This document shows positions 4,401 to 53,240 of a DNA stretch of 64,000 nucleotides, piece after piece. Origin of the DNA: Trichoplax sp. H2 (lineage: Eukaryota). A model generated the notes under the pieces. The model was not told the origin of the DNA, ran no database searches, and worked only from the letters and a program-made list of their open reading frames with translations. The stretch's first letter is position 1; the number at the start of each line of letters is the position of its first letter. The DNA is taken from contig NOWV01000001.1 of the NCBI GenBank assembly GCA_003344405.1, positions 558,001-622,000 of the forward strand, in the 5' to 3' direction. The translations under genes were made by a program, and so were the position numbers.

Positions 4401-4939
4401 ATATTGACGATATTTTTACCAAATTTGATAGTCTCTACTCCATTGGACTACAGCTTTAAATCGAATCATTTTGCAAAATTTATCTACAATTATAATTATC
4501 TTATTAAACTTGATGGATATTAAAAACTTGTTTTTTCTGTAAGCGTCAAGGAAATTTTGGATCGTATGGTCATCCTCTTTAGCGAAAAATATCACTCGAA
4601 GCCATGCAATAATCTGTAAGAGTACTTCCTTAATTACCATAGACATCAAGTACTGTAAGATTAGTGTTTATAATTCGGATCTAAAGTAGAGAGCATTTAT
4701 CTTGATTCATCACAATTCACTTCAAAAATTTTAATCATACAGTCTAAAAATCGACTTTCTCTTCTTTATCAATCCTTACTGGACATTTCTACATCCTCTG
4801 TAACATTAATTTATTCCCATTAAAAAAACAATATCATTCCGAAATCTTCCTAGATGGCGATAAAGCTGTTACTCTAGTATCAAAGTTTGACTAAGTTATT
4901 GTTAATGGCTTCTTAAGTGATCGTGTAACAAAGCAAAAG

Positions 4940-7900: not shown

Positions 7901-9397
7901 TATCCATCATCAATTACTTAAAATATTGAAAATCAAGATTTATTCAAATATAAGTCTTTTCCTTAATGTTTTATCATGTATGAAACTGTAATACTTCATT
8001 GTGCAATTTATTAAACCTGAGTATAACTGCAGAAAATAATTTCCTTTTTGATTTTTAAACAGGTTATTTCGTCTATACCATGTGGCGATTCTGCACAGTA
8101 GCTTCACGAATGATTTTCTTAGGTATCTGCGCATATACTATTGGCATTTACATCTTTGTTATGTTTGCATGCCATTGGATTACGGTAGCTATTATCTCAC
8201 TTTGGGATGGAGCTGGAAATTACTTTGCTTCTCCAATCAGAAAGTATACGTTTTGCATTATGCTTGGCTATATAGATAACTTTTTCTTCCTTAACGTCAA
8301 GCAAGGTTTGTTATTTTACAGTACCATTATTTTAATTTATAAATTCTCTTGCTAGTAAATACATATATTATTGCCTTATTTTTTGTTAACTAGTCTTTTT
8401 TAGTGTTCATGAGATAATATTTAAATTAATTTAATTTATTTTTCATGCATGTATCAGCTAATTATTATTTCCTCTATAATGATTTTATTACGTAGGGAGA
8501 ACTCGAATGCGCTATTTGGTCCATTTTTTTTTACTTTTTGTGGAATTAACTAGTGTAGTTCTGTACTGCTTATTAACTAACAAAATATCTCGACCAGTAG
8601 TCTTACCTGTGCTTTTAACAGCTTTATTATTTTACGTTATTGGAGCTGCTTTTATGATCACCTATTACTGTTGTGCGCACCCAACTAAAGATCGACTTTC
8701 AACATATCTTATGCAGCCACGTTTACCCAAATCAGCAACACGTCAGTCTATTCAACTTTATTATTCTCAAGCTAATTCAAGGAATCCAACACCTAATATC
8801 CAAAGACGTGGAAACGTCCTATCTCAGCCCGGATCGAGACGTCATAGTATAACAGATAATATTGATAATGCAACCGGCAATCTTCCTGTGTTTAGAAAGA
8901 GTATAACTGAATTAGGCTCACAAAGAGAAGGCGAATCTAATCAATTCTTACATCCTAATAAAGCCGCCATCATATTTGCTGATCGATTAGCTAAGTTAAA
9001 CCATGATACAATTGAAGAGGAATCTGCTATTGAACAGACAGTTAGCATAACTATATCGACTGATAGCTATTCTAAACCGAATGAGGTATCAAACGGAGAA
9101 CTCGATATGGCAGAAGTATTTTCAACAAATTCTAGATCAAGTCATGAGGATGATGAAGATATTGCTGCTTCAGATTCCGGTATAGCTATCAGTTCTGGAG
9201 GTAATTCTTACCTATATCGCACTGATATGGTAAGCCAAAGTAAAAGTGTCCAACAAACCATAACGTTGGAAGAAACAAATGGAAATATTGCTATGATTAC
9301 TTCTTCCAAGAAATCAGGAAGTACCGATAAGAGTATTGCAGTAATTGATAAAGGTTCATCAAATAAAATATTAAAATACCGCACTACTACTCTATAA
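4940..9397 (+). CDS. XKR: XK-related protein (Xkr phospholipid scramblase family), paralog A. Exons 4940-5469, 7009-7307, 8063-8305, 8496-9397; about 657 aa.
   Basis: All junctions are GT-AG and phase-consistent (1974 nt). XK hallmarks: TM1 FIANFTTDIVVGIDY, WGWTIIIL, EAAVTSAPQLTIQCY, WRFCTVASR, CHW, FFFLNVKQGRTRMRY, YYCCAHP. Ends in a long Ser/Thr-rich cytoplasmic tail. Exon 2 is absent from the ORF track but is open across its whole length. Confidence 0.92.
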
Positions 9398-11615: not shown

Positions 11616-12142
11616 TTACACTATAACTTTCAATCGCAAAACAAACATTTATCGTCCAGCTAAAAAGTTTATCGATCGACCAGTTGGATATAACCTAGGC
11701 ATGCTTTCAACGTTCACTTCGGCAATCATGTGCTAGATTGGTTCCATTTTTCCATGTATTTACAGCTATCTTTTAATTAGTGTGTTGGTGCTGTGCTTTG
11801 CTTACTGGCTTAGTGAATTCTCTCAATATTTCAAGCATTCAACGTACATTACTACAAGCAACATACGAGAAATCGCTAACCGAACCGGTGACAGGTCTAC
11901 TGTACAGTGGACGTTACAGTATACAGTTATCTCATCCAATTCTACGCCTAGAATTATTAATTGAATTATTAACAACTAGTTTGAATCAGTAGATGTATTC
12001 GATCCTCGACAATACTAATGTTGACATCGCAAGATTGCTAGCTAACATCCAGATTATAAAAAGGTAGAAAATACACTCATGATTGCGTTATGTCTAGCCA
12101 TTAACCCCTCCGGCCTCGAACGTTACGGTAAATGGTTAAAGG

Positions 12143-15100
12143 ATGCCTGCTAGCATAGATGATACCACAAATAACGAAACTGATGGCGCTGTTCATTCCA
12201 GCATCAGTCCTAATCATGGAAATCATAATCAGCCCAAAATATATCGATTATCTTTACTAGAATGTGGAACGTGGATATTTTCCATACTGATGTATATTGC
12301 AGATTACGTAACTGACTTTGTCGTTGGATTTTCCTACATCATTGATGGTCACCCATTGTGGGGAACCATGATAATATTATTATCTGTCACTTCGGGCATA
12401 GTCGTACAAGGATTCTCTCTTTACTGGTCTTTTGGTTGCTACTGGCGCCAGTCTGTGTCTGACAATTCGGATGAGACTAATAATTCGGGCCAATATGATA
12501 CCAACGATAGCCAAGTCGACCGGGATGTTGCTCCTGTACCTGATTACCATGAACCAATACCTGATCAACATGGACCATGTTTTAAAATATGTCATTTATT
12601 TGGTTTATCGATGATGCAGAGGTAATTTGGTAGTATGATCAAAAAAATGCAGACAGATTGTTCAATATTTATTACTTGAGATTATAATTGCTTGGAAGTT
12701 ATATCATTACCGTTCAACATTTAATTTCATCTAATCATCCTGCGTTATAGATTTACGGTACGCATCATCTTTCTATCTGAATAATCGTTCAGATTCACAT
12801 TCTTACGCTGTGTAAATATATTGTAATTTGTTTATAGTAACCTTTGCCTGGTTATTTCAGTTAAGTTGGATACTACTTGTAGTTATATAATGCGTCAAGT
12901 AATTCAAATGTTTGCATTTACACTTTACGTGCTACGACTTATGGTAAATGATCATTTAACGAATGCTGCTAGCAATCATATCAACATTCTATCCTTAGGA
13001 ATGGCTGTAATATATAGGCGTCCATTGATTGATTATTACCATCATGCTGTATTATGCATAAAGTATTAACCAACACCAGCTAGCAACTTATAGTCGATTG
13101 AGATACAAGTGTAAAATCTATACTACATATTTAAAGTTTGACAGTCCTTTTTTGTGTGTAGCTGTAGAAATATCATTTACTTCTAATATATTTACAGTAA
13201 GATGGTGATTGTAAGCTACATTAGACATTATATAGTTAGCTTAATGAAGATTGTACAGATCATTTAGCATTTAACTTAATTGTGCCTTTCATCTCATTAC
13301 AGATACTTATATATTGCAATCAAAGGTAGAAAGCGCCATGACGAATACCAACATGGTTTATTATTATACCATATAGCTGATGCTGGCCTAATTAGTACAG
13401 TTGATGTAACTGTTGATTCAGCGCCGCAACTAATCTTACAAATTTATATCATCATTACTAATGGTGAAGTCGATTTTTTCAAGATTGCTTCGGTCGCAAT
13501 CTCGTTCTTGTCTACTGCATATTGTGTCACATACCATGTAAATACGTTACGCAAGGCTCAAAAACAGATCGGAAAAAAAGTCAAGACATTATCTTTTGAA
13601 GGTATAGTATCATAATTTAGCTGTTGTACATTTCGTAACGTTAATGACTGGACTCTCCAGTTGCTATAAAATAGTGTTAATTAGAGTTAATCTTGTTTAT
13701 AAATTTACTGTCTTTCTTTGTTAAATACTTTATACTGTTTAGATCACGTCTGTAAATTCAAATTAACTACACTAAATTTACTATAATTTACAATACTAGC
13801 CCTAAAACCCATTCTACAACTTGCTATATTGACTTATATACTATACAATTACATGCGAACAATGTTACGATCTAAAAATATGTATATCTTTCTTGCATTT
13901 AATAGGCCTAGGAATGTATTTCGTATGGAGAATCTCCTTTTTAATCTCTAGACTTACATTACTAGCAGTCTTTGCGTATTACTTTCAACAGTGGATATTT
14001 TTTCTATTCTTCTGTCATTGGTTTGTTATGACTACTATATTCTGGATTGATGGCGTCGGCAGCTATGAGAAAATTGGTTGTTGTGTATTAGACCGGAAAG
14101 ATCGGTTGAACCTCTGTGAAAAATTTGTCTTATGTCTTACCAACGGATGGATAGATATCTTCTTCTTCATCAATTTAAAACAAGGTTAGATTATCAGACT
14201 TATAGAACTTAATTTTATCTACTAGTAAAATTACTGACATGGCATTTAAAGTGATAGATCAAGTTATTAACTAGTTAATAGTTGGTATCATTTACAGAAT
14301 TAAATATTACTTAGATACCTTGAAGGAAGTTAAATGAATACATTGGCGTTTTAGCATCTGTAAATCTAGACCAGTCATTTTGGTCGGTCCAGCTACATAT
14401 GCTGTACCGAGTCTGTAATAAATTCATCCTTTAACTTCATTGGAGACTTGTCTAACTTGAATTTATCTATAACTTGAGATATAGCTTTACTTTGGCACCT
14501 GTGTTAATCCTTCAAAATTAGATTTCTGTAATTAGCACAGTATTACAGCGCTTCACTGTAGGTATAAAGATGGGTTAATCTATTTATGGGGTTACACTAA
14601 TCTCCTTGATGACCGATTAAAACTGTGTAATTTACTACTTCATAAACACTACGATTTCTATACGTATATTATAAATCCTTTTCATCCAGTTACTGCCAAT
14701 AAGGTTATAATTTTCATTACCAGTAAATCAATGTTCTAGTATCGATTCTATTAAACTATTTCTTTCTAGTTTTGATACTTGAGCATAATATGAAAATAAT
14801 CGAATCATATCGAGATTGAATCCATGATAAAAAATAGTATATAGATATTTTTTATCAATCGTTTCCAATAAAATTATTCGTGATTTTAAAAGTGTCTTGA
14901 TTCTTGTTTATTAATTTAGGTAAAACTCGTCTGCGCTACATCGCTCATTTCTTCATGCATTTATTGGAACTAATTTTGACGGCTGTACTATTGGATAGCA
15001 ATAACTTCATAAATGGTAGAATAGCATATACATCTATAGGTGTTATAACTGGAGGATTTTTTGTCGGCTTGGTTTTCTTCATCGTGTATTATAGCGCTTT

Positions 15101-15389
15101 TCATCCTAATTGTACGTCAGTTGGGAAATATTATACCAGCCGCAACAGTAACAACAAACATGGATTGGCTGATGAATCACTGATGGAATGCAGTGGATCT
15201 GTTCGACAAGTTTATTTTCACTCAGATATAGTGGATACTGGTATTCACATAACAAGCAGGGAATCTGCTGCTGTCTCTACGGTTTCTAGTAAAACGGTTC
15301 CTACTTCAAAAGTGACAGAAATGAGTGGAGATACAGTCGATATCTGCCATACGCTTCGATTTAAAGAGGAAATAATTCATGCAGTGTGA
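12143..15389 (+). CDS. XKR: XK-related protein, paralog B. Exons 12143-12621, 13303-13601, 13906-14184, 14920-15389; about 508 aa.
   Basis: GT-AG, phase-consistent junctions (1527 nt). Motifs YIADYVTDFVVG, DSAPQLILQIY, WRISFLISR, CHW, FFFINLKQGKTRLRY, YYSAFHP. Confidence 0.92.
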
Positions 15390-25900: not shown

Positions 25901-27605
25901 TACCAAGTCAATTTAATTGACTGGTACATTCATCGCCAATTTCATTCCTTGAGCACCACCAGCTAGAGCAAAAAGTACGCGCAATTCCCTTTGGCACGTA
26001 GTCTATCGCATTCTACAGCATTTAGAGGTAAGAAAATGAAATTGTCGATAATTTTAACTAGCGCAAGACGACCATTTCTTTCTTTCATGGTAATCCTACT
26101 TCAGTTGGAATGCTATTTCCTCAATTTTGCAGTGAAAAATTTTTTTTTCTAAGCCAGTTATTTACTGTAGTCAGTGTTGCAATGACGCTCGTTGAATTCT
26201 TCATACTCTCTTTACCCGTATGACGCTAACTAAGGTGAATTGACTTGATTAATTCATTTTGCAACGCATGGTGAGATTGACCCTAACTCGATAACTAGCC
26301 TATCATGTATATTTTATATGCATTGGATCATTTTTAATCCTCAAAATTACCTTTGTATGACTTGAAAAATCAACTGCTTAACGAAAAGGAGGAAAGAATT
26401 CAAGTCATGCTGATTAGTAGAAAATCAAGCATAGTTACCAAGCTGTTGTTGTCTTCCTGTAGCTGTATTTTTGTTTTTTTACCGATAAAATTTTTTTTCT
26501 TGTGGAGATCAATACAATAAGTCATTGTATAGCTAACTTGTATTTTTTTTTCTTTTCTTGTGATATGGATTGTGTAGAGGTCTTTCTCTCTTCCTTGACC
26601 TATTGAAGCATTATTATTCAGCCTTGTCTCTGTTTGTTATTACTGCATCAACTAGACAAAGTCAGCATTATTATTCAAATAGCCACTGTTGTTCAGTACC
26701 ATTCATTGAGAATAGACACAGACACTAAGACTACCGGTTAAGAGAAAAGGTTACTGGTCGATCCTGTCAGTTACACATTAACCGAACAGGAATTACTTCA
26801 AGACAGCACGAAAAAAAACAACATCAAGCTGAGTCTGAATTTTTCCCCTCGACTTATCTACATTGTCAACTTAATTGGACTGCAAGCTTATCTCCTCTTA
26901 ACGACATTACACTGACTTTGAAAATCATCCAAGCTTACTAGAAAAGAATTAGGGAGAAAAATTTTTTCTTTTCCCCTTACTCAACAACTCATTAGCCTTT
27001 TACGCCAGTTAACAAAATCAAAGAGAAATTAAAGATTTATATAAAGCATCCTGAAGAAAACACGACGCAATTTCATCAGTGATTGATAATTATCATTTAC
27101 GGTGAGAAAAAATATTGTTATTCATTACAACGGTTAATCAATCGTAGAGGTTTTTTATCTTTGAACGGCTTAATTTTCTAGTATACATTGACTGACTATT
27201 TAATGAATATTTAAATACAGAAAGGAAGTGGGTACTATTATACGCACTACCTTACCGGTCCTGTTGAAAAAGACAAAAGAGGCGACTTCTTCTACTTTGC
27301 TTGTCAGCGGCAATTAATAAAGCGCCGAGTGATCTTATCAAAAAGGAAAGGAAACTGATATTTGCGGAGTCTTGTTTGAACTATTTTTTTCGATAAATTG
27401 ATTCCCTCAAAGCTGAATCTATTCATTTCCTTTTCGCCTTACGTGTGTGTGGGTGCAACGTGATTCGATCTCAACGGTCCAGCTGTTAATAACTTGGGTC
27501 ACGCAGTAATCGCTTGAACCCTTTTGCTTCGTTGCAGTCAAGTGATTTTAGACTGTCAAAAATTTTTTTTCAAATCCCTCCAACCCCCACACTAGATTGA
27601 TCATC
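25898..27605 (+). other. Predicted spliced 5' UTR of the Mos gene: exons ~25898-26027, 26578-27101, 27221-27605. The transcription start position is uncertain.
   Basis: Intron 1: donor AG|GTAAGA at 26028, branch-like CTAAC at ~26533, polypyrimidine tract, AG at 26576-26577. Intron 2: donor CG|GTGAGA at 27102, CTGAC at ~27192, CAG ending 27220. The predicted exonic sequence contains no ATG. Confidence 0.6.
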
Positions 27606-28490
27606 ATGGCCTGTGAATTATTTTCATTAATTTCTCCTCATTGTACAAATTCAACGTATGCTAAAGTTGATCATAATGAGTTAAACATTGAACGCCTATT
27701 AGGTAGCGGCGGTTTCGGTTCAGTTTATGAAGGTACCTACGGTAGTAAAAAAGTTGCAATTAAAAAACTACATCAACGTGGTAAAAATGAACGAGCGGCA
27801 TTGGATAGTTTTAAAGCAGAGGTCCTAGCTATGTCGCTTTTACACCATCCTAACATTGTTGAAACTGTAGCGATATCGACAGCATCTGATTGCCTACATG
27901 ATTATCCATTACTTATTATGGAATTAGCTGGCAGTCGTAACTTACAGGAGGTCCTCAACGATACCGATACGGAAGTGATCGATGTAAAAAGACGATTAAA
28001 ATTTGCTCATCAGATTGCAATGGCATTGGAGTACACTCACTCATTTGGTATTGTGCATTTAGATTTAAAGCCTGCTAACGTCTTGATTACACCTGAAGAT
28101 AATTGTAAGTTAGCCGATTTTGGATGTAGCCAAACCGTCCAAGAAGATGGCTCATGCGTTAATAGCCCGACACGGTCTTACTTAACTGGTACTTTTGCTT
28201 ATACAGCACCGGAGTTATTACGTGGTTGTGATCCAACTACTAAAGCTGATATCTACTCATTTGCAATTTGTTTATGGCAATTAATTGCACGAGAGCGACC
28301 TTATGGATGTGAAAATCCACACGTCGTTATTTTTGCTGTAGTGGCATACAATCATCGTCCACCGATTACCACGCAAATGGAAATGGAAGAAGATTACCAG
28401 CATTTAGTTATGCAAGGTTGGAATGCTTGTCCATCTGATCGTCCAACAGCAGCAGACTGTGTTGAAGTATTAAAAAAGTTACAGCAATAG
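27606..28490 (+). CDS. MOS: Mos serine/threonine kinase (MAPKKK; oocyte meiotic maturation / cytostatic factor), intronless CDS, about 294 aa
   Basis: Complete kinase with Mos-typical motifs: LGSGGFGSVY, KNERAALDSFKAE, IVHLDLKPANVLI, CKLADFGCSQ, GTFAYTAPELLRG, KADIYSFAICLWQ, RERPY, HVVIFAVVAYNHRP. The first in-frame ATG is at 27606; the ORF track start at 27597 is a TTG. Confidence 0.93.
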   Translation: MACELFSLISPHCTNSTYAKVDHNELNIERLLGSGGFGSVYEGTYGSKKVAIKKLHQRGKNERAALDSFKAEVLAMSLLHHPNIVETVAISTASDCLHDYPLLIMELAGSRNLQEVLNDTDTEVIDVKRRLKFAHQIAMALEYTHSFGIVHLDLKPANVLITPEDNCKLADFGCSQTVQEDGSCVNSPTRSYLTGTFAYTAPELLRGCDPTTKADIYSFAICLWQLIARERPYGCENPHVVIFAVVAYNHRPPITTQMEMEEDYQHLVMQGWNACPSDRPTAADCVEVLKKLQQ

Positions 28491-40712: not shown

Positions 40713-42683
40713 AAATCAAGCATTAAAGCAGATAAATTTAGCTCTTTCATGATTCGTAGCTGAAATGTCTAAATCATCGACTATCTTAATGTAAAGGAAT
40801 TTAAATCTCATATAGAAGATGTAGTCAGCTAATACGGTACTCTGCGAGATATTCCGTACAAACATGCTAGTATCTGTAAAATATTCGTTATCGAATTCGG
40901 TCATATAGAAGAGTAGAAACTTACAGAGTGCACATGCTTTGGTTCTAAAATCTAGTGCTAAGATCAAATAGGTTTAGCGTTTGCATCGATAATTATTAGA
41001 TCGCTGTAGAGCGTTACGCATGGTAGTATTTGTCGATTTTTGATTCGAAAATGTAGAGATTTAGAAGATTAAGCGAGAAGAAACTTACAGCATTTACATC
41101 TTCGTATGTTCAGTGCATAAAAACTAGTATCAGAATAAGCAAAACTAACACTTAGTACACTGTACGGCCGAAATTTTATGCTTGATTATCAAGGTGGATC
41201 ATTCTAAATGTCATATACAGTACAGTAAGGTGTCAACTACGTATCTGCAGAGTAAACTATTAATGCAGGTCTGTATTGACATTTTTTTCGACAATTTCAC
41301 CATCAATACTTGATGAATCGTTCTAAATGTATTTAGATATGCTAAATATTGTGCTTTATAAGATAAATACAGGCAAATCATTAAGTTTTGCCTACAGTTT
41401 ATTTGGCATCATTCATTACTTAATTCAGAATTTAATATTAACTTACAAAGTATCTTGCCTGTATGTTAATCCTGACAGGCTGGATTCATAGCAATACTAA
41501 ATATATCATAACCCACTATGCTCATGCTAGTGAATTAGCGCCCGAGGTTAGGTTTGATATATGATATAAAATTATGAGCTCATAGACCAAGTGTTTGTGC
41601 TTTAAAGGTCTTACTGCTCTCAACTGTGATTAAATATTCACACAGTAAAATGCATGAACAACAAATATCCAGTCTATTATCCACCCTGTTAAAGAGGTAA
41701 TCGATTTTATATTATTTCTTATATTCAGGAAGGTAATTTTAAATAAGGCTAAACAAATTAGCTCCCAAAAATGTCAAGTTATAATTCGTATCACTATTCA
41801 ATTTATATAGTCTAAGATTAATGATAATGCTATAGATTACTATTTACGCTCTATATGTATAACCATAAACTTTTAAAATAGAAGTACATTTACATGTAGA
41901 GTGATTTAATCTTCTGTCATTTATAGATCTTGGTTGACGTTTATCTGAATAATAATCATGAATATTAATATACTGTATTGCGGAAATGCTATGATTTTAC
42001 AATCGAGAAGGTATCATACCTAAAAGAGAAACATTATAAATAACCAACTTATGACAAATTGCGAGTGCAAATAGTAAGTCAGGCGATTGATTCTTATATT
42101 TCTTTATTTATCTCTTATCGAAAATTTTAAATATGACTAAGAGATAGTCAAAAGTAAGTAAAGCAACAAGTTGCTTTATTATATGAAAACAGTTTCCGTG
42201 CGAGGCAGAAATTATACTAAAAGTAGCGGAACAAACGCAAATAGTAGTTATTTACTACAAGCTCGTTAGTAACTGTAGAAGATTTATAACTTTACAGTAA
42301 ATCAGTAGTTATTATCAACAACTTAAAGTTATAAAATATTATGGAACAGATTGGTGATGGCTAATATTTTACGAATCACAATCATACTTACAAAGATAAC
42401 GATTTAACATATTAATTTAAATAAATTCTTTTGATGCAAACAAATATTACTGTATGTATCACTTTTCCATTCGCAAGAAATACGGTTATTGCTATTTAAA
42501 GGGCTAGATGCAATATATTCAGATAGTGCATACAGTATGTCAAAAAAGACATTTATGGATAACTTAACGTTTAACATACAGGTAAAAGAAATATACGCGT
42601 TAGAGTAACCCATAGGAATTCCATTTGTTTAAAACGATTTTACTCTAAGAGATAATTGTCCTTTGAAGTTGATAGTGGCATGT

Positions 42684-45600
42684 TTAAGTGAAGTTATACC
42701 GGTATAGTCTGTAGTAAAATAACGAAAGAATTATTCTCGAATCACTTTTAGAGGGAAGAAGTAGAATTCGACGGATACTTTACTATTAACAATTAACTCA
42801 AATATGTTTACCTTGGCAAATTAGAATCATTTCTTACTCTTGAACCACTCAGCATTTGAGAACTAGTACCCTAATAATTTAACAATATCGTCGATAATCA
42901 TTAGATAATCTACGTAACGTACCGTACTCATTCGTCTTCCTTTATCGGAAGAAAAACTAATTAAGTAGCATCTTCTATAAGTTGCATGTCATATAATATA
43001 AATCTTACTCGATTTCGAAACGATTTAATAACATGATTTGTTAACTCTGGTGGAAGTTCATAGCTACGACATAGCAAATATGCTTGTTCCATTGTGATTG
43101 CTGCCAACGTTCTATAATGCATATCAAATTGCAGTAGTATTAGTATTATCTAAGTAAGTATACGATTAAATTAATTTCATTATTTTCTTGATATGCCTAA
43201 AGATACAGAAAGACTACCTTTCCGCTCCAGAGCGGCAACCAACAATTTGTATAGCTCCTATTCTAGCTGCCGCTTCTGATGAAAGTAACAAGATGTTAGC
43301 GTTATCTTGTCCCATCGACGCATCCATGATGCACTTGTCTAGCAGTTTAATTAGCTTCTCAGCTGTATAAAGAGGACGATATAGCTGCAATCATAAAATA
43401 ACAGATTATATCTCTCGCATGTATAATTTAAACCAAATCCGATTTTATACGACAGAATATATACACATCCTTACTCTATGAAAACAGACAACTTGTGACG
43501 ATCTTGGCAAATGTTTTGTATCAAATATGGCGTTTCTATAATTGAGATTATTAGTAATTTACATGATTTAAGCGAGGTTAAACATGATTAATCGGCGCTA
43601 AAAATAAAAGAATGAAAATTACGATACGTAAACATAAACGATATCTCAACCTATAATACCACTTACTTAAATTTTCTATAATACTTGCGTAACGACTTCA
43701 ACGAGTCAGTATTAATTGCAGTTTGCATATGAATGGCTAAGGAGTTTTCCGGATCGGTTTTATCTTCAACTTTTTCTAATCCTATTTATGCGAAAATACC
43801 AGCATTTTAGTCTGGTATTTTGCAAATAGTACAAATTTACAATTGTAAAATACCATGCGTAAACAAAACCGGAGTAACTTGCACACTTTGGCCTCGCTGC
43901 AAAGCGTCTGGTAGCTTTTGGAATAAATTTTCGCCCAAGTTTATTATCACATCCAGGTCTGATCTATCTCCTTCAAATACCACTTGATATTCATCAGCTA
44001 CATTACAATATTAAATGAAGTAATTATTAGCGAAATAAAATACTCACGATATAATTAGTCATTTTGATGCTCTGAACAACAACATTTAGTATAAACTATT
44101 AAAAACTGTATCCTAAGATTAGGTGATACAAGTAGACAATTGTGGCATCTATGATATTATTTTATGTGTGCGTGCGTCTAGTAGCTTATGTCATGTTCGA
44201 TAAAATACTCATACATTTATATTTTCGGATTCTAAGTTCTGTATTTTAAATTTTAGTTTATGTAATGTATCTATTTTAGAGATACCTGTGTTGAACATAC
44301 TATCGTCCAATAATTTAAATCGAATAGCAATTTTCGAAAGATCTTGAATAGCTACCGACATATCTTCTAGCATTGCAGTTTCACTGCCCTGTAAAAGTAA
44401 GATCTGTTGTAAGATCTTATTACAGTTCTCTGACACACGAAATTTATCCCTTAACTTACTGTTCGTGATGATAATAAAGCTTGAAAGTAGACTAGTAGTC
44501 CAATTTTACTAAGTTGCTGTAACCATTTCGCACTAGTAGATTCGCTGTCGGTAGTGTATTCTTGCAAGTTATTATATATATCGTGGATAGCAGAGTATAA
44601 TTGCGAAATGAACGTAGATAATACAGCCGTTAAAGCTTGACTGAAAACCGCATCGCGTCTCTCGACACATTTTGTATCTAAAGTTATATGCAGAGCGGGT
44701 AGAGTTAATATAAGAATGCTATGAAGACAAAATTCAAATTTATCTTAAGATATAATTATAGCTTACTTTCATCGCTAAAGATGGTCATAAGTAATCGTAA
44801 TCGAACCTCTGTTAAAATAGCGGTTAAAAAAATACCGTTGGAAGATAAGTATATTTATCATTCCTTATTTTAAGTACGTAGCGACGTTAATAAACACTTT
44901 AATTTTTAGTACATATGAAGATTTAGATATATGAGTGAATGAAATCGTTTGTATTCTGCTATCGCTACAGTTTAAGTATTTGATAATATGCACCTCTTAG
45001 AGATTGCTTAAGCTTCTCTACTTTCTTATTAAAAGTCTCTATACAGTTGAAATTTTCTTCGGTATCTTTATCAGCTTGGTTAAGTAAAGCGATTAATTCC
45101 GTACTAATGGTAGTGAAGTCCCTTTTAACCTCTAAAATGATGTCCAGAAAAAATGTTAAAAGTAGATATGCTTCTATTAAGCGATAATGAATTAATTCTA
45201 TTAAGCGATAATGATAAATTATGATACATCTAATGAAATGAAGTAAGAACTTAGTGTCGTTTTGATGCTCTTAGTTGTAAGATTGATATGATTTAATAAA
45301 CTGGCATTTCCTTGTTATCCTTATAACTATTGTAATTTACCTGACAGCAGTAAAGGTCGATTAGATTCGGTTTGCTGAAAGATTAGTTTAATATGATTTG
45401 ACGATACAATAGCATTTAACTTCTCTATCATATCCATAAACGAATTGCACTTATTTCTTTCTTTTAAACCGTTATTGTCTGCGTTATCCATTTCATTGAG
45501 AAAAATCCTTATTTGGTTCAGCATATGGCGACACTTAGCAACAAAATCTTGCTTGCCACGTAATAAGCGCTAAGAAATAGTCGTACATCAATTATGCGAC

Positions 45601-48600
45601 TTAAAACAGATTATGAAATTTCGGATTTTACCTTTAAGCCGCCTGCATGGAATCCTTGCATAACACCTGATGGAATGGCCATCCCAGTCTTGGAATGGAT
45701 TGTTCGAGTAACTAGCAGTCCATCAACTGCAAAATTAGCAGTAAGATAATAGAAATTTAGGGAGTACTTATGCAATGAAATTTTAACTATTAGGTTAATG
45801 AATAGTTTTATCAGGGCATTGTTAACAGATGCTGTAAGCCATACTATGAAATAATTTGGAATTATGCACTGCTATTGCTATCAAGAATACAGATAACTGT
45901 GTAATGGATCAAAATTACCTGGATAAGTAAATTCTTTCAAATGGAGATAATCGATATCTTCCCCATTATGCGTTTCCGGTACTAATGACGGCCGGTAATT
46001 CGTAGAGCAGTAAACTTCCAGTTCATGCAAATAGCAACGCAGTGGACAGAAAGGATACCGAGCAATCAGATTATTATTCTCTTGTTTGGCTTCTCCTTGG
46101 CATTTAATGCAATTTAACGAGCTAGCAGACTACCATAAATACAGCGTAATGATTATAACGTAGTCAGAATTCTATGTACAATAATAATTTTAATTCAAGA
46201 TATTATTATGTGGTGTACTGTAAAGTTAAGCACCTCCCGATAATTATCAATCCGTTCTTTGATAGTAGAGAGGAAATTTGTATAGCTGTTAGCCCATGAT
46301 TTTGACCTTTTCTTTTGGTCACCGATTGGACTACTACTCTTAGAGGGTATAGTTTCTGCGTTACTAACACCAAGAAGTTTAGCAGCCTGTATATATACGT
46401 GAGATAATTTGGGTTACCTATCGTAATGAAACGTATAAAATTGTAACACCTAAATTTCAACAACTGCTTGTCATTGCCTTGCTCATCTGTAGTACTTGAT
46501 CCGGAAAAGCGGATGAAAATTCCATCTCAGGCGATGCTTTCTTTCTGGTTTTACTGAAGGACTTTAAAAGTTTTCGTCGTATTCCACTTTTTTCTTTATT
46601 AACCATTTCATCTGCTCCTAACAATTTCATTGCCTAAACATGTAAATTAGAAAATAAAGTTATGACATCATTTTATTTCGTAAAAAGATCTCCAGAGAAT
46701 TAACATGGTCTCTATTAAAAGGACTTTTGGACACCGCATATAGAGGATGTACAGCTGTGTATAACTTGGGTAGACTGTGTATAATATATATTTGAGAATA
46801 TAATGACTGTAGTGAAAATATAATATTCATAATATTATTCAAAAGTTTCTTTCACCTTCAACTGCTGTCGAGCTAAATCAGATTTACTGGAGTCTTCACT
46901 AGTAGAGACATCATCTTCTTTGTCATTTGGAGTAATAAATTCAACCTCAATTGATTCCAACTCTTGCAGTAAGCGCTCATCAATATAACTAAAATGATAA
47001 TACAACTGAAGAAATGCAGTAAATTAAGTAAAATGCGACTGTTAGTTTCTCAAGTTATGACTTTCACAACGACACTACGATGCAACTTCCTAACCCTAAC
47101 CTCAATCCTAATGGGGAGGCTTAGAATTTAGGTAGGAATGAAACAAAAACACTGATGTACAAATACTACATTAAATATAATTTTGCATTTTAGTAGTACA
47201 TGATTTTTCATACTTCAGCTGGTACTGATGTAGTTAAATCACTTTCGGTTACTCTTTCTTGAAGTTGACAAGGCTTCTTGTCAATTGTTAAGTATTCGTA
47301 ATTAGTAGATATTTCCGTAGACAGACTAACGACACTTGATATATCAGAATCAGAACTGAATATGCTATGATGGCGTTCTCGTGAATAGCCACTATCTTTA
47401 AGGCTTGCTTCATCACCAAGACTTTCAGCTGTATTTTCTATCAAACTGCTATAAGATCCACTGCTTATGCTACTAACTCGGCGGTAAAATTGCCTTGGCA
47501 TACTGTTGCCGGTACTCGTAGATTCAAAGCGATCTCTACTCTCCCTATCGTAAGGCATTAAGACAATAGAACATATTAAGCTAATGAGTTAGTGAAGACT
47601 TATTTTACTGATGTGAACTTCCTCAGTTACTTATTTTACAGGAATTAATACTCTACTAATAAGCTTAACAAGATAGAATTTGCCTGTCAGTATGTTATTA
47701 ACATGTGGAATTTACATGTAATGAAGTATTTTAGATTGATGTAGATTGCATTTATCTGCTACATGTTGAGTTATGAATTATAAATTTGTAACTTTATTAC
47801 TTGTATGATTCATCATCAACTTGATCGATGTCATCAAAGTAAACAGAAGATGTATCAAAACCAGTATTGTCTTCACTTATTAAACTTGTTAAGGATCGAG
47901 TTCTAAGTAATTCCGGATGTTCACTATTAAGATGAGTTGGGACTGGAATTGTTTCAACTAGGTATGTACAGATATACAGATAAATAATTAACAAAACATA
48001 TATTGAGAGTCTTCACATCAGATTAGTGTAGTAGATTAATTTAATTTTGATTTAATTTTGTATAAGCCATTCTTTATCGTATTTTACTACAATACCATCT
48101 TTTATTTCTAGTGAATCATCGGACTCAGTGGGTGAATTCTGAAGGGATGGCGCTAATGAACGAGAAAAATAACTCTCTCGAGATGGTGATCTTGATGACA
48201 GTCTAGGAGAAGCTAGATGATTGGAGTGCATTGGTATGGACAAAAAAGAATCCTTTTCCACGCTATTGGTATTGCCATAGCGATATAAAAAGAGGGGCAA
48301 AAAATATCATAATGAATATTAGTTATCGAAATTAGTAGAGAATTAGTCTAGTTCCGTGCTATAAGAGTACCTATAATCTTCAACAGGGATTATGCTTTGC
48401 AATAGGGTAATTTCATCAATGATTTTAAATTTACCGTCGTTGTCAGTCGGAGAAACATTACCACTCTCTCTATAACCAATCTCATCGGTATGGAAACGAT
48501 ATAATTGGTTGGAATCTTTAAATTGGCCACGATCGTTGACTATCAAGCCAAATTACGACACATATAAACCTCAGTACAGAACATGTATTTTGATAAACTT

Positions 48601-51600
48601 AATAAAATTGAAATGCTACCCCTACCATGTCGGAGATATTTCGTTTCGCACAACAACTGGCCTAATACACACCCTTCTTCCCTTGTGTCAACGTCGCCCT
48701 AGGAAATTTAATGTAATATTAGTTCTCAGAAATCAAAATTCTCATAAGGGATTATGCCCTAAGCAGATACTTTGCAGTAGTTTATAGTCCGATTTATATT
48801 TATATACACGTTCACGGGTGGAATACGCAAGCAGGATACGGTACAATAGATAATCTTGTTGGCTATTTCTCATATTACTTGCGCTAAAAATGCTTACTTG
48901 TTCGATTAGCCAATTAACTAACTTAATACCGGTCACAGATTGAGGGAAAACTTTCAGTTTATCCTTGTAATTTCTAAATCATTGAAATATGTAGTTACGT
49001 TATAACAAATTACGAGAATCGTCTTACACTATTGATTTAGCGAATGAATTATTGTGATGCATAGACAAAATCACTATTATTGCTACTTACTTCAATGTAG
49101 GCTTAAGCATCCCATGTAAGCGAAAGTATATTAATGCAGACTGGATATGATAAAGCAATTAATTATGAGCGCAAATGAACATTCACTTTTTTAGAAGTAC
49201 TATCGCAATAACTATTTATTTAAGCTTTGAACATGTTGCTAACAATGGATAAGGCATCCAACGGTGCGGTAGCATCTTCATATGTGCCATCATCATAGCG
49301 GAATCGATACCAATAATCATGGTTATCAAATTGAATTTGATCATCCACTGGAAGTGATGTGAATTATCAAAGGCAAGGCATTAATATCAAAGAACTTTTG
49401 ACTCTACAGGAATTTTAAACTGATTTATTTCATACCATGATGGATTAAGTTGCATTCTTGAAATGTTTGACCTAATTTAATTGCTTCTTCGACAGTAGAT
49501 GATAAATCATTTTTCATCAGCCAAGAAACAAGATCGCTTTTCAAATTAAAAATATTAAATCATCAGTGCTAAAATGATGCCGTCCAAATGCGAGTACTCT
49601 CAAATATTAGATAACTACTACAGTGTATTATTATGAGGGTGAAGAATCAGTAACCGTTCCTAAAGAGTTTTAGCATAATCACCTCCCAGTAAAGCATTTG
49701 TCTACACCAACTTTATCCTTTTTAGTTCGATAACGTATAATCGAATCACTTTCTGCATGTATTCTTTGATAGATTTGCTCGGCTAGTAAGGGAATATGTC
49801 AATACAGTAATATCATTGGAATATTCTCGAGATGTGACGTAATTTTTGATATAAAAGTTTGTTGAAGTCTATACTTAAATTAATTGCGTAGCGGTTTAAG
49901 GACTATATAAATAAACACCATTAATTTATATACTATATTAGGAATGCATTGATTCTACCTTTGATGACTAATCTCCTGGATATATATTTCTCGCGAGGTG
50001 CACTACTGCCAGCTAAATAGAAACGGAAGATATGTGGTTGCTTAAAATTATCATATAAATGATGCAAAATAGCTGAAAAATTATATAAAGACCGAAAATT
50101 TTCATATGCGATATTTCGGTAACTAACTTGCATTAGGTCGCTTAGCATTTATGCTTGTTAAAGCCTCTAACCATAAATTCTTTTCTTCTTGAGAACTTGC
50201 ATAAACTGTTATCCACTTGCCTTTTGACATATTATATATTTTCCAGGCGTTATATACCGGTTTATGGTTACCAAGCTTATCTAGAACTAAAAACGTTATA
50301 ATAAAATAGCAAATTAGCCTTGCGAATCTTGCCAATGCAGAAGAACATCAGATATGAGACGTTAGAATGACACATGTCTACTGTTTAGTATGACATTTAG
50401 TTATTTCTAAATAATCAAAATTGGTGAAATCAGGCTTATAAACACCTTTGCCATCCTTTACGCTTTCTATATTCATCCCCCGTGTCATAATTTTACCGCG
50501 ATAAGTATATTCTGTAGCACCCAACGTTACTATAATTTACGGTAATTTTATATGATTTAAGCTTGCAAATTTTGAGTGTTTAGACATTTATGATGATGCA
50601 AGTTATCAACTTTTCTTACCGTTAGCAACACGTTGAGATAGGCTTCAAGCAATAGGAAGAAAAAAAATATTTAATTCAGAATCAAGGTAGGACCACAGAA
50701 TTTAAGTTCACAGTCAAGTAACGCGCTAAGTTTAACCGGTAGTGCGAAAATCATTGCATTTTCGTTCAACTGCAGTAATTCCAATATAGTGTTGCATATA
50801 CACCATAGAGAACGTTTAAAAGTTATAGCAGTTTGTTTCAGTGCTTAAAATATTCTGATATTAATAAAATCTAAGGTATAACTAGATCTGCTGTATTAGG
50901 TAATGGAAGAAAGGGTAAACTTTTCAAAAAGTAACTCAGCTGATACTTAGATTCCGGATAATTTCCGCTAAATCGCTAGTGAATGGTAAATCATTCCCTC
51001 ACCTTCTACTTTCCTTTTTACAACATATTAATTGCTTCTTAAATAAAATAAAATAAAGTTCTTCAGCTCCATGGGGTGTCAATTTCATTAAAGATCCTTT
51101 TTTCAGTATTTTAACCTCTTTTTTACTAAAATCCAATCCCTACAAAGTTCATGGTATAGTCAGGGTTTTTCATATCTACAATTCATATCTTAAATGTATA
51201 ATTTTTAGCTGATATACATATTGATTCTTAGGATATTACAAATGACATTATAAATTGCCATTATTGCTACGGTTTAAGCTTTAGCGCGATTATTATCGCG
51301 GTAGATTTGTTGTAGTGTTCCTCGCTTTTATAGCTAGTTTGGAGGCTGAATTGTATGGTACAATATTCACCATACAATAAACTCACCGTCCACCCTTTTA
51401 TAGAGGCAACCAACTCTTCAAGGGACTCTAATTCTTCCAGTTGTCGCTTTATCTCGTTGACTTCTGAGCAAACATTTTTAATTTCCTGAAATGTATCTAG
51501 TACCGTTTGGTAGTCTACGTGACTTTCAGGCGTTTGCCTTAGTAGCTCCTAAAACAAATAATAGCAATATAATTACCGCTCTAAAAATGTTATAAATAAT

Positions 51601-53240
51601 TTGATATGCACTACGCATTACCTAATTAGTAACCTACATTCTATGATATAGTATGCAAATAATAAAACCACGAAATGATATTTACTAATTATTGCACTGT
51701 AATTATGAGCTCAAGATATATATGTAATGTGCGAAGGATATAAATTCTGAAGGTAACCGAAATTAAGTACAGATATATAAGTTTGATCAGCAAATGTATT
51801 CAAAGGACCGAAACATTCATTGTGTTACGTTTTCATCATATGTATCAATAATTATATTACCTTGAAAAGTAAAGGATATTTACAAATACGTTGTACAGGA
51901 GTAACAAGGCAGCTTGCAAGATAGTCAATTTCCTTCCCTTTAGTTACTTTTTCCATACCTTCCACTTTGGCTGCTTGTTCTACACATGACTTAATTAATA
52001 GTGATATCGTGAAAAACACAAGTAACTCATATTTAGTATTACATAGAGGTATTACATTCAAAACATGGAACTTACATTGCATCTTATAACTACTACCTTA
52101 ACATCAGGTGCACTATCGTATGAATCGCATAATAGCCATTAATGCTAGATTTTATATTGTTAATGCCTCACATTACTATAGATACCTTAACGTTATCACT
52201 TTTGAGCTGATCTTTCAGAATATCTTCAAGAAATCCGATAGCTACTTCATGACTATTACAATAGCTTGCATAAATTTTTAAATCTTTAGCCTAAATAAAA
52301 TTGAAATTTATACAAATGCGTTAATAATTACCAAGAAATAATGTCCGCAAGACGACTATAATATTATCATTATTGATACAGATCACTAAAACTAGTATTT
52401 TAATATTTCTAAACTCACAATATTGTACTATTATAATAAATTTATTTTACTCTATTACTAGTATTACTGCTGTGCCTGTAAGAAAGCAGAAACTGCACAA
52501 AAACTAATTACTGTTATGAGATGCAAGATCTACCATTAGAAAACCATCTTGATATAGTATGGTTAATGAAATAATATTGGAGCAAACAAGGCAATCGAAT
52601 TCTTGTAACGGTATAACTAACTAACGATAACATAACTGCATTAAAATGAATTATTTCTATAGAAAATAGTGTAGCTTTGCATATATCCATTGCAAAAGCC
52701 TTCTGAAACTATTTACTTTCAATGCTCGTTTCAATAACATAATTTCAATATACATTATCTTAATTTGAACTTACAAATGTAAAAAAAGTATTTGCAATGG
52801 AATTTTTGTCGTCGTTCTTTTCATTCATATCATGCAATAATTTACAACTTAATTGATATAATTCTTCAACATTGCCCATCAGAGATTCTACTTCACTGAT
52901 TGATATGCAGCTGGTTAACTTTTTACTGGACCGAGCCAATAAAATCTCTTTTACCTATACAGAGATCAAACTTATTTTAATGTCCTATGACGTAACTACA
53001 TTGATAGTTATATACTACCAACGGCCATAGATCAATGAGTAAAGTTTACTCATTAATGTAAAGGCAATCAATAGGAAGAAGTTAAAAATTACGATAAATT
53101 TGTTACTGTACCTTCACCAGAAATCGCAAATTTTTAGCATAAACTTGTTCCGTAGAAACAATTTCATTCAAGACCATCAATCTTATCCTTGCAATTTTAT
53201 CCATTTTTTCCTGACTTTTATTGCGTGTTTCATGATTCAT
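42684..53240 (-). CDS. PREX: P-Rex family Rac guanine-nucleotide exchange factor (DH-PH-DEP-DEP-[no PDZ]-IP4P-like), 37 coding exons, about 1545 aa. Exons: 53240-53112, 52954-52775, 52290-52186, 51989-51861, 51548-51387, 51139-51003, 50642-50620, 50529-50446, 50280-50128, 50012-49959, 49782-49683, 49536-49436, 49347-49244, 49140-49091, 48973-48898, 48698-48626, 48539-48371, 48262-48096, 47957-47801, 47544-47214, 47005-46856, 46633-46478 (or -46496), 46386-46234, 46129-45919, 45726-45632, 45569-45341, 45131-44994, 44808-44767, 44677-44460, 44388-44301 (or -44286), 43997-43854, 43781-43667, 43535-43475, 43384-43218, 43111-43009, 42870-42812, 42708-42684.
   Basis: Manual splicing gives one open frame with P-Rex signatures. 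DH: RLMVLNEIVSTEQVY, PVQRICKYPLLFKELL, VCSEVNEIKRQ. PH: YRGKI, NAWKIYN, KNLWLEA. DEP1: WYRFRYDDGTY. DEP2: KLVNWLIEQGDVDTREEG. IP4P region: FCPLRC, RRDAVFSQAL, AMLEDM, CRSGAERT, and terminal PRLYR. An AG acceptor at 53256-53255 implies a further upstream exon. Confidence 0.93.
45172..45214. repeat. Intronic 19-bp direct duplication
   Basis: TTCTATTAAGCGATAATGA occurs twice, 5 nt apart, inside a P-Rex intron. Confidence 0.8.

What the first reader, a model, noticed from the sequence alone, without database searches (positions are those of the whole stretch)
43009..43384. P-Rex IP4P domain has an INPP4-like catalytic loop (CRSGAERT): possibly an active phosphatase-GEF
Seen: codons 43237-43218, spliced to 43111, encode C-R-S-G-A-E-R-T followed by LAAITMEQ. 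Known (recalled): active INPP4A/B use CKSAKDRT, while the vertebrate P-Rex1 loop is CGTGMQRS and the domain is regarded as a pseudophosphatase. Here the CX5R Cys and Arg, the basic +1 residue, the Ser, an acidic +5 residue and the following Thr are all INPP4-like; the second Lys is missing. Inference: an intermediate or ancestral state in which a Rac-GEF is fused to a potentially functional phosphoinositide 4-phosphatase.
Basis: partly seen in the sequence, partly recalled or inferred. Interest (0 to 1): 0.78.

Follow-up and report, generated by a model that had tools for sequence, protein, structure and literature searches.

The report
Placozoan P-Rex with half-decayed phosphatase loop
A Trichoplax Rac-activating protein carries a phosphatase-like tail whose catalytic loop lies midway between working INPP4 enzymes and the inactive vertebrate P-Rex domain; it is probably a relic of a once-active site, not a working one.

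Summary
On the minus strand, exons 43384-43218 and 43111-43009 encode ...VGCRSGAE|RTLAAITMEQ... RNA contigs from 3 of 4 runs laid join exactly 43218|43111. The spliced chain equals residues 1372-1546 of the public Trichoplax sp. H2 "P-Rex1" model.

The recalled comparison loops are right. INPP4 has CKSAKDRT. Human P-Rex1 has CGTGMQRS and P-Rex2 has CSSGVHRC.

- "Intermediate" is supported. Two choanoflagellate proteins with P-Rex architecture keep a canonical CKSGKDRT loop. A tree uniting all RhoGEF-linked IP4P domains is not rejected (p-AU 0.979).
- "Active" is unlikely. Trichoplax has Ala where INPP4B K846M abolishes lipid-phosphatase activity. It has Glu where 114 of 116 INPP4-type rows have Asp.
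- Outside the loop it keeps 10 of 17 INPP4-invariant residues, the same as a vertebrate-type P-Rex1. That protein is inactive despite having CX5R plus Asp.

Best reading: a PDZ-less P-Rex orthologue whose IP4P domain is a regulatory scaffold with a partly decayed catalytic loop (confidence 0.68). Residual phosphatase activity: about 0.12-0.15.

The parts
42684..53240 (-). Coding span of the Trichoplax P-Rex orthologue. It matches the 1546-aa public model P0002 and has the order RhoGEF-PH-DEP-DEP-(Ser-rich linker, no PDZ)-IP4P.
   Evidence: tblastn of P0002 on the window; Pfam; PDB best hits are P-Rex1 at 2e-157 and P-Rex2 at 1.1e-143, with the next RhoGEF at 2e-32; stop at 42686-42684.
51387..53240 (-). 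Exons of the DH (RhoGEF) domain (approximate bounds). Both GEF-critical residues of P-Rex1 (E56, N238) are kept.
   Evidence: In the alignment, LNEI and VN|E align with P-Rex1 E56 and N238. E56A/N238A is the GEF-dead mutant (passages).
48500..51139 (-). Exons of the PH domain and the two DEP domains (approximate bounds).
   Evidence: Pfam PH 245-361 and DEP x2 up to residue 571, mapped by tblastn.
43218..43384 (-). Exon encoding LYRPLYT...IQIVGCRSGAE plus the first two bases of the loop Arg.
   Evidence: RNA joints lie at both ends (43384|43475 and 43111|43218) in X4, X5 and X7.
43218..43237 (-). P-loop codons for Cys1479, Arg1480, Ser1481, Gly1482, Ala1483 and Glu1484, plus AG of Arg1485.
   Evidence: numbering from P0002.
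43112..43217 (-). 106-nt GT..AG intron that splits the Arg1485 codon of the CX5R motif.
   Evidence: It is skipped in contigs of 3 of 4 runs laid.
43009..43111 (-). Exon that starts with the last base of Arg1485 and continues T-LAAITMEQAYLLCRSYELPPELTNHVIKSFRNR. This is the helix after the P loop.
   Evidence: The model places a helix at residues 161-179 of the 224-aa stretch.
42812..42870 (-). Exon encoding GTSSQMLSGSRVRNDSNLPR, the counterpart of the P-Rex1 TI-loop region. P-Rex1 D1638 aligns with Asn1533, and Asp1534 is adjacent.
   Evidence: alignment; for D1638; joints in X5 and X7.
42684..42708 (-). Last coding exon piece (LYRYNFT plus stop).

Best explanation
The window holds the placozoan orthologue of the P-Rex Rac exchange factors. 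Its N-terminal DH-PH tandem most likely activates a Rac-type GTPase; this is inferred from kept catalytic residues.

Its C-terminal IP4P domain has the P-Rex1 fold. It most likely serves as a non-catalytic regulatory or scaffold module, as it does in vertebrate P-Rex.

The CRSGAERT loop is a partly decayed remnant of an INPP4-type active site, CKSGKDRT, which the common ancestor of choanoflagellates and animals probably had in its P-Rex. Cys, Ser, Gly, Arg and Thr survive. Lys +1 has become Arg, Lys +4 has become Ala, and Asp +5 has become Glu.

Shown here: the sequence, the splice, the orthology, the fold and the distribution of loop states. Inferred: loss of phosphoinositide 4-phosphatase activity and the scaffold role.
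For: Orthology:
- RhoGEF, PH and 2x DEP by Pfam.
- Best PDB hits are P-Rex1 at 2e-157 and P-Rex2 at 1.1e-143, against 2e-32 for the next RhoGEF.
- The IP4P tail aligns to P-Rex1 at 2e-26.
- The 224-aa model (pLDDT 87.3) matches P-Rex1 at TM 0.76-0.81 and Z 15.4 over 222 residues.
- In the tree, Trichoplax lies in a 21-row P-Rex clade (SH-aLRT 97), outside the other 19 metazoan rows (SH-aLRT 96).

Loop decay:
- In 116 INPP4-type rows, position +4 is Lys in 114, +5 is Asp in 114, and +1 is Lys in 108.
- INPP4B K846M is reported to keep protein-phosphatase but lack lipid-phosphatase activity (passages).
- Cash et al. attribute INPP4A's basic pocket partly to its two P-loop lysines. [quoted passage not shown]
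- By simple counting, the Trichoplax loop has net charge +1 (R, E, R), as in P-Rex1, against +2 in INPP4.
- Outside the loop, Trichoplax keeps 10 of 17 INPP4-invariant positions, equal to P0010, which has the P-Rex1-type loop CGTGMQRS. It has lost K1456 (now D), R1475 (Q), R1522 (S), N1529 (S) and N1373 (E).

Ancestral state:
- P0019 (S. urceolata) has RhoGEF-PH-DEP-DEP-PDZ and P0133 (H. gracilis) has RhoGEF-PH-DEP-PDZ. Both carry CKSGKDRT.
- P0019's best PDB hits are P-Rex2 at 9e-104 and P-Rex1 at 1e-96.
- With the loop columns removed, the tree that holds all 22 RhoGEF-linked IP4P rows together scores 54.9 log-likelihood units higher than the free quick tree, p-AU 0.979.
Against: - No assay exists for this protein. 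Inactivity is inferred.
- The catalytic minimum is present: Cys, Arg, an acidic residue in the loop, and an Asp (1534) next to the position of P-Rex1 D1638.
- The loop is the most INPP4-like of the metazoan P-Rex-type loops sampled. This could reflect retained constraint and not just slow decay.
- From recall, checked by no call: other CX5R lipid phosphatases such as the myotubularins and Sac1 work without P-loop lysines.
- K846M is said to keep protein-phosphatase activity, so a non-lipid substrate is not excluded.
- Cash et al. themselves leave open an unidentified P-Rex1 substrate.
- The protein lacks the PDZ domains that form part of the G-beta-gamma site in P-Rex1, so the vertebrate scaffold model may not transfer fully.
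- The tree rests on about 206-214 columns and a quick search. The position of the two canonical-loop choanoflagellate rows is unresolved in the free trees.
Confidence: 0.68

Rival explanations
1. One reading: the Trichoplax IP4P domain is a working cysteine phosphatase. The protein would then be a bifunctional Rac-GEF/phosphatase, acting on phosphoinositides or on a non-lipid substrate.
For: - CX5R has Cys and Arg in place, with Ser +2, Gly +3, Thr +7, a basic +1 and an acidic +5.
- Position +1 tolerates Arg or Met in INPP4-type rows (R in 1 and M in 5 of 116).
- Choanoflagellate orthologues keep the full loop, so an active ancestor is plausible.
- INPP4B K846M reportedly keeps protein-phosphatase activity.
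- The gene is transcribed and spliced so as to keep the motif.
Against: - Ala at +4 and Glu at +5 sit at positions held by Lys and Asp in 114 of 116 INPP4-type rows each.
- K846M abolishes lipid-phosphatase activity.
- 7 of 17 invariant positions outside the loop are changed, three of them basic.
- P-Rex1, with CX5R plus Asp, is inactive in vitro.
- Retention outside the loop is no better than in chordate P-Rex.
Confidence: 0.14
2. The loop no longer catalyses but still binds a phosphate-bearing ligand, such as an inositol phosphate, a lipid head group or a phosphoprotein. It would act as a sensor that tunes GEF activity or membrane targeting.
For: - The P-loop backbone, Arg1485 and Arg1480 are kept.
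- The P-loop-then-helix arrangement is modelled with block-mean pLDDT 80-94 around the loop.
- The idea that pseudophosphatases retain ligand binding is general knowledge (recalled).
- The missing PDZ module suggests that regulation differs from vertebrates.
Against: No direct evidence. Loop net charge is only +1, and several basic INPP4-invariant residues are lost. The P-Rex1 pocket is partly occluded by the TI loop, and that region is present here.
Confidence: 0.12
3. The motif is an artefact of gene prediction: real transcripts splice differently and break CX5R.
For: The Arg codon of CX5R is split by an intron. The two public models differ elsewhere.
Against: Contigs from 3 runs in 3 studies join exactly 43218|43111. 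The RNA-supported chain translates to P0002 1372-1546 without a break.
Confidence: 0.02

Closest known systems
Human P-Rex1 and P-Rex2 (PDB 6pcv, 7syf, 8tua; 9zq7)
   Same: DH-PH-DEP-DEP N-terminus and a C-terminal IP4P domain with CX5R at the same position. The fold of the last 224 residues matches (TM 0.76-0.81, Z 15.4). GEF residues E56 and N238 are kept.
   Different: No PDZ domain is detectable, even at E<=10. The loop is CRSGAERT, against CGTGMQRS and CSSGVHRC: basic +1, acidic +5, Thr +7. R1522 and N1529, kept in most chordate P-Rex rows, are Ser here.
INPP4A/INPP4B inositol polyphosphate 4-phosphatases (for example Nematostella, Sycon, Capsaspora and salmonid proteins P0015, P0021, P0016, P0041, P0144)
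   Same: Homologous C-terminal phosphatase domain (E down to 3.7e-14). Shares Cys, Ser +2, Arg +6 and Thr +7, plus 10 of 17 invariant positions outside the loop.
   Different: No C2 domain; RhoGEF-PH-DEP instead. Lys +1 is Arg, Lys +4 is Ala, Asp +5 is Glu. K1456, R1475 and R1522 are lost. It lies in the P-Rex clade, not among the INPP4 rows.
Choanoflagellate P-Rex-like proteins: P0019 (Salpingoeca urceolata), P0133 (Hartaetosiga gracilis), P0082 (Mylnosiga fluctuans), all from EukProt transcriptomes
   Same: RhoGEF-PH-DEP(-DEP) plus IP4P architecture. P0082 groups with Trichoplax at the base of the P-Rex clade.
   Different: They have a PDZ domain. P0019 and P0133 keep the full CKSGKDRT loop and 12 and 14 of 17 outside positions. 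P0082 has lost the Arg (CGNGGQLC).
Bacterial phosphoinositide phosphatases SidF (4fye) and SopB (8jzl)
   Same: Apart from P-Rex1, these are the only chains in the 50 rows shown that align across nearly the whole model (187-202 residues). Cash et al. report SidF and SidP as structural homologues of the P-Rex1 IP4P domain.
   Different: Z is only 7.8-8.5 at rmsd 4.4-4.9, within the range the tool calls middling. Sequence identity is 7-10%. These are secreted bacterial effectors of unrelated architecture.

Membership tests
P-Rex Rac-GEF family | DH-PH tandem most similar to P-Rex, with the GEF-critical Glu and Asn | tested here: met
   Pfam RhoGEF 2.6e-33 and PH. P-Rex1 at 2e-157 against ARHGEF4 at 2e-32. 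The E56 and N238 counterparts are kept.
P-Rex Rac-GEF family | Two DEP domains after the PH domain | tested here: met
   Pfam DEP 8.8e-35, 2 stretches.
P-Rex Rac-GEF family | Two PDZ domains between DEP2 and IP4P | tested here: not met
   No PDZ family for P0002 at E<=0.01 or E<=10. The same scan finds PDZ in amphioxus, Ciona and the three choanoflagellate proteins. A very divergent PDZ cannot be excluded. The protein is therefore filed as a PDZ-less orthologue or variant.
P-Rex Rac-GEF family | C-terminal IP4P domain of the P-Rex type | tested here: met
   Aligns to P-Rex1 residues about 1192-1615 of the PDB chain (182 bits) and at 2e-26 for the last 224 aa. Fold match. P-Rex clade at SH-aLRT 97.
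P-Rex Rac-GEF family | Synergistic activation by PIP3 and G-beta-gamma | not testable with these tools
   Biochemical property. The PDZ part of the G-beta-gamma site described is missing here.
INPP4-type active 4-phosphatases | CX5R with nucleophilic Cys and Arg | tested here: met
   C1479 and R1485.
INPP4-type active 4-phosphatases | Two P-loop lysines (+1, +4) | tested here: not met
   Arg at +1 (K in 108 and R in 1 of 116 rows). Ala at +4 (K in 114 of 116). K846M lacks lipid-phosphatase activity.
INPP4-type active 4-phosphatases | Asp at +5 of the loop (counterpart of SidF D650) | tested here: not met
   Glu1484. Asp in 114 of 116 INPP4-type rows and Glu in none. SidF D650 lies on the P loop.
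INPP4-type active 4-phosphatases | Other near-invariant residues of the catalytic core | tested here: inconclusive
   10 of 17 kept. The INPP4-type rows themselves have a median of 1.00 and a minimum of 0.41.
INPP4-type active 4-phosphatases | N-terminal C2 domain | tested here: not met
   No C2 family in Pfam scans.
INPP4-type active 4-phosphatases | PI(3,4)P2 / Ins(1,3,4)P3 4-phosphatase activity | not testable with these tools
   Needs an enzyme assay.

The most novel reading that the evidence does not exclude
P-Rex began as a true bifunctional enzyme: a Rac-GEF fused to a working INPP4-type phosphatase that removes PI3K-pathway lipids. This form would still exist in some choanoflagellates. 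Trichoplax would be a living intermediate that retains Cys1479-dependent phosphatase activity, perhaps shifted to a non-lipid or soluble substrate, before the domain became a pure scaffold in chordates.
Probability: 0.12. Interest if true: 0.75.

Novelty: new variant of a known kind. Interest (0 to 1): 0.48.

Why it matters
Why P-Rex proteins carry a large, apparently dead phosphatase domain is an open question. The reviews and the structure paper read here say only that no activity has been detected.

The series found here turns that question into a testable evolutionary path:
- a canonical CKSGKDRT loop in two choanoflagellate P-Rex-like proteins;
- CRSGAERT in Trichoplax;
- Arg-less or uncharged loops in other lineages.

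The path would run from a GEF-phosphatase fusion to a scaffold. It also names concrete proteins to assay.

One review states that P-Rex is "absent from invertebrates" (passage). These data and Fort & Blangy show a patchy, much older distribution.

For Trichoplax itself the practical message is modest. The gene is a P-Rex orthologue already present in public annotation, and its phosphatase loop alone is weak evidence of activity.

Tried and rejected
- Own-genome search: no genome is held for this window. I could not check whether Trichoplax has a separate canonical INPP4 gene.
- Word-index homologue searches: the first found only the two placozoan models. A profile of 14 fragments added two unnamed JGI proteins, P0163 and P0164, which I did not analyse.
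- Naming of metagenome fragments: those with P-Rex-type loops (P0012, P0014, P0020, P0030, P0048, P0112, P0140, P0017) carry no organism, so their taxa remain unknown. My guess that some come from sponges is untested.
- PDB by sequence: at E<=1 only 4 distinct chains match the tail, all of them P-Rex. No INPP4 structure matched.
- Foldseek against the PDB listed only P-Rex1 entries at E<=0.001 (3 of 343). No SidF or SidP appeared among the rows shown. VIA-wide gave SopB at Z 8.5 and SidF at Z 7.8, which is middling.
- The model covers only the last 224 residues and no coordinates are returned.
- Run X11 gave no joints, and its contigs cover intron sequence, so it says nothing about splicing.
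- Earlier scan notes: none for this genome. The word search returned only unrelated phage CX5R items.
- Chance or mis-splicing as an explanation was rejected.
- The first invariant-residue count defined INPP4 rows by their loop motif, which is circular for loop positions. I repeated it with rows defined by exclusion.
- Literature: searches found no paper that discusses P-loop states of non-vertebrate P-Rex. In one search all 10 listed papers (of 30 hits) have zero occurrences of 'choanoflagellate'. The 2012 review by Rynkiewicz et al. (cited) is not in the library. The supplements of Fort & Blangy are closed and may list choanoflagellate or placozoan PREX members.
Full report
**What is in the sequence**

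Read on the minus strand, 43390..43214 is an open frame ending ...IGAIQIVGCRSGAER followed by a stop. The Cys codon is 43237-43235. AG at 43219-43218 precedes a GT donor at 43217-16. After an AG acceptor at 43113-12, base 43111 completes AGA (Arg), followed by Thr and LAAITMEQAYLLCRSYELPPELTNHVIKSFRNR up to a GT donor after 43009.

Contigs of four public runs were laid on 42600-45600. Three of them join 43111|43218 (106 bases skipped, GT..AG on the minus strand) and also 43384|43475. These are X4, RNA by its record, and X5 and X7, RNA guessed; they come from three studies. The two downstream junctions, 42869/70|43008/9 and 42708|42812, are seen in X5 and X7 only. The fourth run, X11, has no joints and covers intron sequence, so it is uninformative.

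Joining the RNA-supported exons in a script gives a 175-aa translation. It is identical to residues 1372-1546 of protein P0002 and ends at a stop, with all five introns GT..AG.

**What gene it is**

The exon peptide finds two public proteins at 100% identity:
- Trichoplax adhaerens TRIADDRAFT_58074 (P0001, 1436 aa);
- Trichoplax sp. H2 "P-Rex1" (P0002, 1546 aa).

P0002 maps to the window's minus strand from 53240 to about 42800 in some 26 tblastn pieces. Pfam finds RhoGEF, PH and two DEP domains, but no PDZ even at E<=10.

Against the PDB, the best hits are human P-Rex1 (2e-157) and P-Rex2 (1.1e-143). The next RhoGEF is ARHGEF4 at 2e-32. The counterparts of P-Rex1 E56 and N238 are conserved in the alignment, and the double mutant of these residues is GEF-dead (passages).

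The gene is therefore a placozoan P-Rex orthologue that lacks detectable PDZ domains.

**The loop compared with known loops**

The last 224 residues align to P-Rex1 (2e-26) and P-Rex2 (1e-21). This shows P-Rex1 ...VMCGTGMQRS... and P-Rex2 ...IMCSSGVHRC... opposite Trichoplax ...VGCRSGAERT....

CX5R itself is shared by the human proteins. The literature says the same. Cash et al. 2019 (PMC6795519, passages read) make these points:
- P-Rex1 keeps Cys1583, Arg1589 and Asp1638.
- It showed no activity, wild type against C1583A, on lipid and peptide substrates.
- Its TI loop partly occludes the pocket.
- In SidF the catalytic Asp sits on the P loop.

CKSAKDRT as INPP4B residues 842-849 is in print (passage).

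**Wider sampling**

A full HMMER scan of 1.84 billion representatives with the 224-aa tail gave 215 proteins at E<=0.001, of which the best 150 are listed. I aligned these 150 plus P0002 (151 rows) and read the loop column.

Rows were classed as follows:
- 32 metazoan P-Rex-type rows. Twenty were placed by the tree clade. Twelve are short fragments placed by loop type and similarity, which is my judgement. One of them does not cover the loop.
- 3 choanoflagellate RhoGEF-linked rows.
- 116 others.

The 116 others are INPP4-like. They include named INPP4 proteins of Nematostella, Sycon and two salmonids, and an unnamed Capsaspora protein.

| Loop position | Residue in the 116 INPP4-type rows |
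|---|---|
| +1 | K 108, M 5, R 1, D 1, S 1 |
| +2 | S 113 |
| +3 | A 62, G 53 |
| +4 | K 114 |
| +5 | D 114 |
| +6 | R 115 |
| +7 | T 111 |

In the 30 other P-Rex-type loops, +1 is never basic, +5 is acidic in 2, and +7 is Thr in 3.

Trichoplax keeps 4 of the 7 invariant loop positions. The 14 other P-Rex-type rows scored (13 metazoan-type plus Mylnosiga) keep 1-3.

**Why activity is nevertheless unlikely**

- The two positions that are nearly invariant in INPP4-type rows and changed here are +4 (Lys to Ala) and +5 (Asp to Glu; no INPP4-type row has Glu).
- INPP4B K846M, at the +4 position, is described as keeping protein-phosphatase but lacking lipid-phosphatase activity (passages of PMC4908438 citing earlier work).
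- Loop net charge is +1, as in P-Rex1, against +2 in INPP4.
- Outside the loop, 17 columns are at least 90% invariant in the 116 rows. Trichoplax keeps 10. The chordate rows keep between 7 of 15 and 12 of 17, and the P-Rex1-type row P0010 keeps 10 of 17.
- The changed positions include three basic ones: K1456D, R1475Q and R1522S.
- P-Rex1 Asp1638 aligns with Asn1533, with Asp1534 adjacent.

A first version of this count defined INPP4 rows by their loop and was circular for loop positions. One search corrects that.

**Fold**

The 224-aa tail was modelled with a 50-row alignment: mean pLDDT 87.3, pTM 0.82, and the loop followed by a helix at 161-179. It matches P-Rex1 structures at TM 0.76-0.81 and Z 15.4 over 222 residues.

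In the 50 rows shown, the only other chains aligned across almost the whole model are SopB (Z 8.5) and SidF (Z 7.8). Both lie in the range the tool calls middling. Because no coordinates are returned, pocket shape could not be judged.

**Evolutionary context: the most interesting result**

Eleven of the 150 hits carry a P-Rex-like N-terminus. Named ones include amphioxus, Ciona, hagfish and fish P-Rex, plus three choanoflagellate transcriptome proteins.

Pfam on the choanoflagellate proteins:

| Protein | Species | Domains before IP4P | Loop |
|---|---|---|---|
| P0019 | Salpingoeca urceolata | RhoGEF-PH-DEP-DEP-PDZ | CKSGKDRT |
| P0133 | Hartaetosiga gracilis | RhoGEF-PH-DEP-PDZ | CKSGKDRT |
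| P0082 | Mylnosiga fluctuans | RhoGEF-PH-DEP-DEP-PDZ-SH3 | CGNGGQLC |

P0019 and P0133 keep the canonical loop and 12 and 14 of the 17 outside positions. P0019's best PDB hits are P-Rex2 (9e-104) and P-Rex1 (1e-96), against ARHGEF4 at 1e-32.

In a quick maximum-likelihood tree (138 rows, 214 columns):
- Trichoplax and Mylnosiga sit at the base of a 21-row P-Rex clade (SH-aLRT 97).
- The other 19 metazoan rows form a clade (SH-aLRT 96).
- P0019 and P0133 pair (SH-aLRT 95), but their position is unresolved.

I then dropped the eight loop columns. This left 134 rows, after also dropping one long-branch row and rows with fewer than 165 filled columns. The tree that holds all 22 RhoGEF-linked rows together scores 54.9 log-likelihood units higher than the free quick tree, with p-AU 0.979. 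A single origin is therefore not rejected, though it is not proven either.

The simplest reading is that the choanoflagellate-animal ancestor had a P-Rex with an INPP4-type loop. The loop then decayed independently in Mylnosiga and in animals, and Trichoplax is the least decayed animal state sampled.

**Literature**

One review says P-Rex is absent from invertebrates (passage). Fort & Blangy 2017 report the PREX branch missing in Ambulacraria, protostomes and Cnidaria (passages), which fits the patchy set of hits.

Four searches found no paper on loop states of non-vertebrate P-Rex. A 2012 review that is not in the library, and closed supplements, may bear on this.

**Verdict**

The gene is a publicly annotated P-Rex orthologue, so it is not a new kind of system. 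It is a variant: it lacks PDZ domains and has an intermediate loop.

It is most likely a pseudophosphatase (0.68). There is a small chance of residual activity (about 0.12-0.15) or of ligand sensing (about 0.12). The choanoflagellate orthologues are the better candidates for a living GEF-phosphatase.

Noticed in passing
window about 46200-48500 (-), P0002 residues about 575-960: The stretch between DEP2 and the IP4P domain is Ser-rich and has no PDZ hit, even at E<=10. Amphioxus, Ciona and choanoflagellate P-Rex-like proteins do have PDZ. In P-Rex1 the PDZ domains form part of the G-beta-gamma site, so regulation here may differ.
   Followed up: partly
window 42684-42870 and about 47800-48540 (-): The two public models disagree. 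The T. adhaerens model P0001 lacks about 110 residues after DEP2 and has a different C-terminus. The RNA-supported exon chain equals P0002 and is not a substring of P0001.
   Followed up: partly
window 44767-44808 (-): A 42-nt micro-exon inside the IP4P region is supported by RNA joints 44677|44767 and 44808|44994 in X4, X5 and X7.
   Followed up: no
window 4895-9397 (+) and 12140-15389 (+): Two neighbouring sets of ORFs each cover the XK-related (Pfam PF09815) profile from start to end. This suggests two tandem XK-related genes.
   Followed up: no
window 27552-28490 (+): A single 312-aa open frame with a complete protein kinase domain (Pkinase 3.5e-47).
   Followed up: no
P0120 (Rhodelphis marinus, 1671 aa; not in the window): A non-animal protein joins PH and four LIM domains to an INPP4-type domain with loop CRSGKDRT. 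It is the only INPP4-type row with Arg at +1.
   Followed up: no
P0012, P0112 (unnamed metagenome fragments; not in the window): These P-Rex-type tails have lost the loop Arg (CLRGTDAT, CYKGLEET) but keep an acidic +5 and Thr +7. P0012 branches just inside Trichoplax in the tree. Their organisms are unknown.
   Followed up: partly
P0054, P0105, P0118, P0125, P0150 (not in the window): A well-supported group of five INPP4-type proteins has Met at +1 (CMSGKDRT). Two are about 1685 aa long, and their N-terminal domains were not examined.
   Followed up: no
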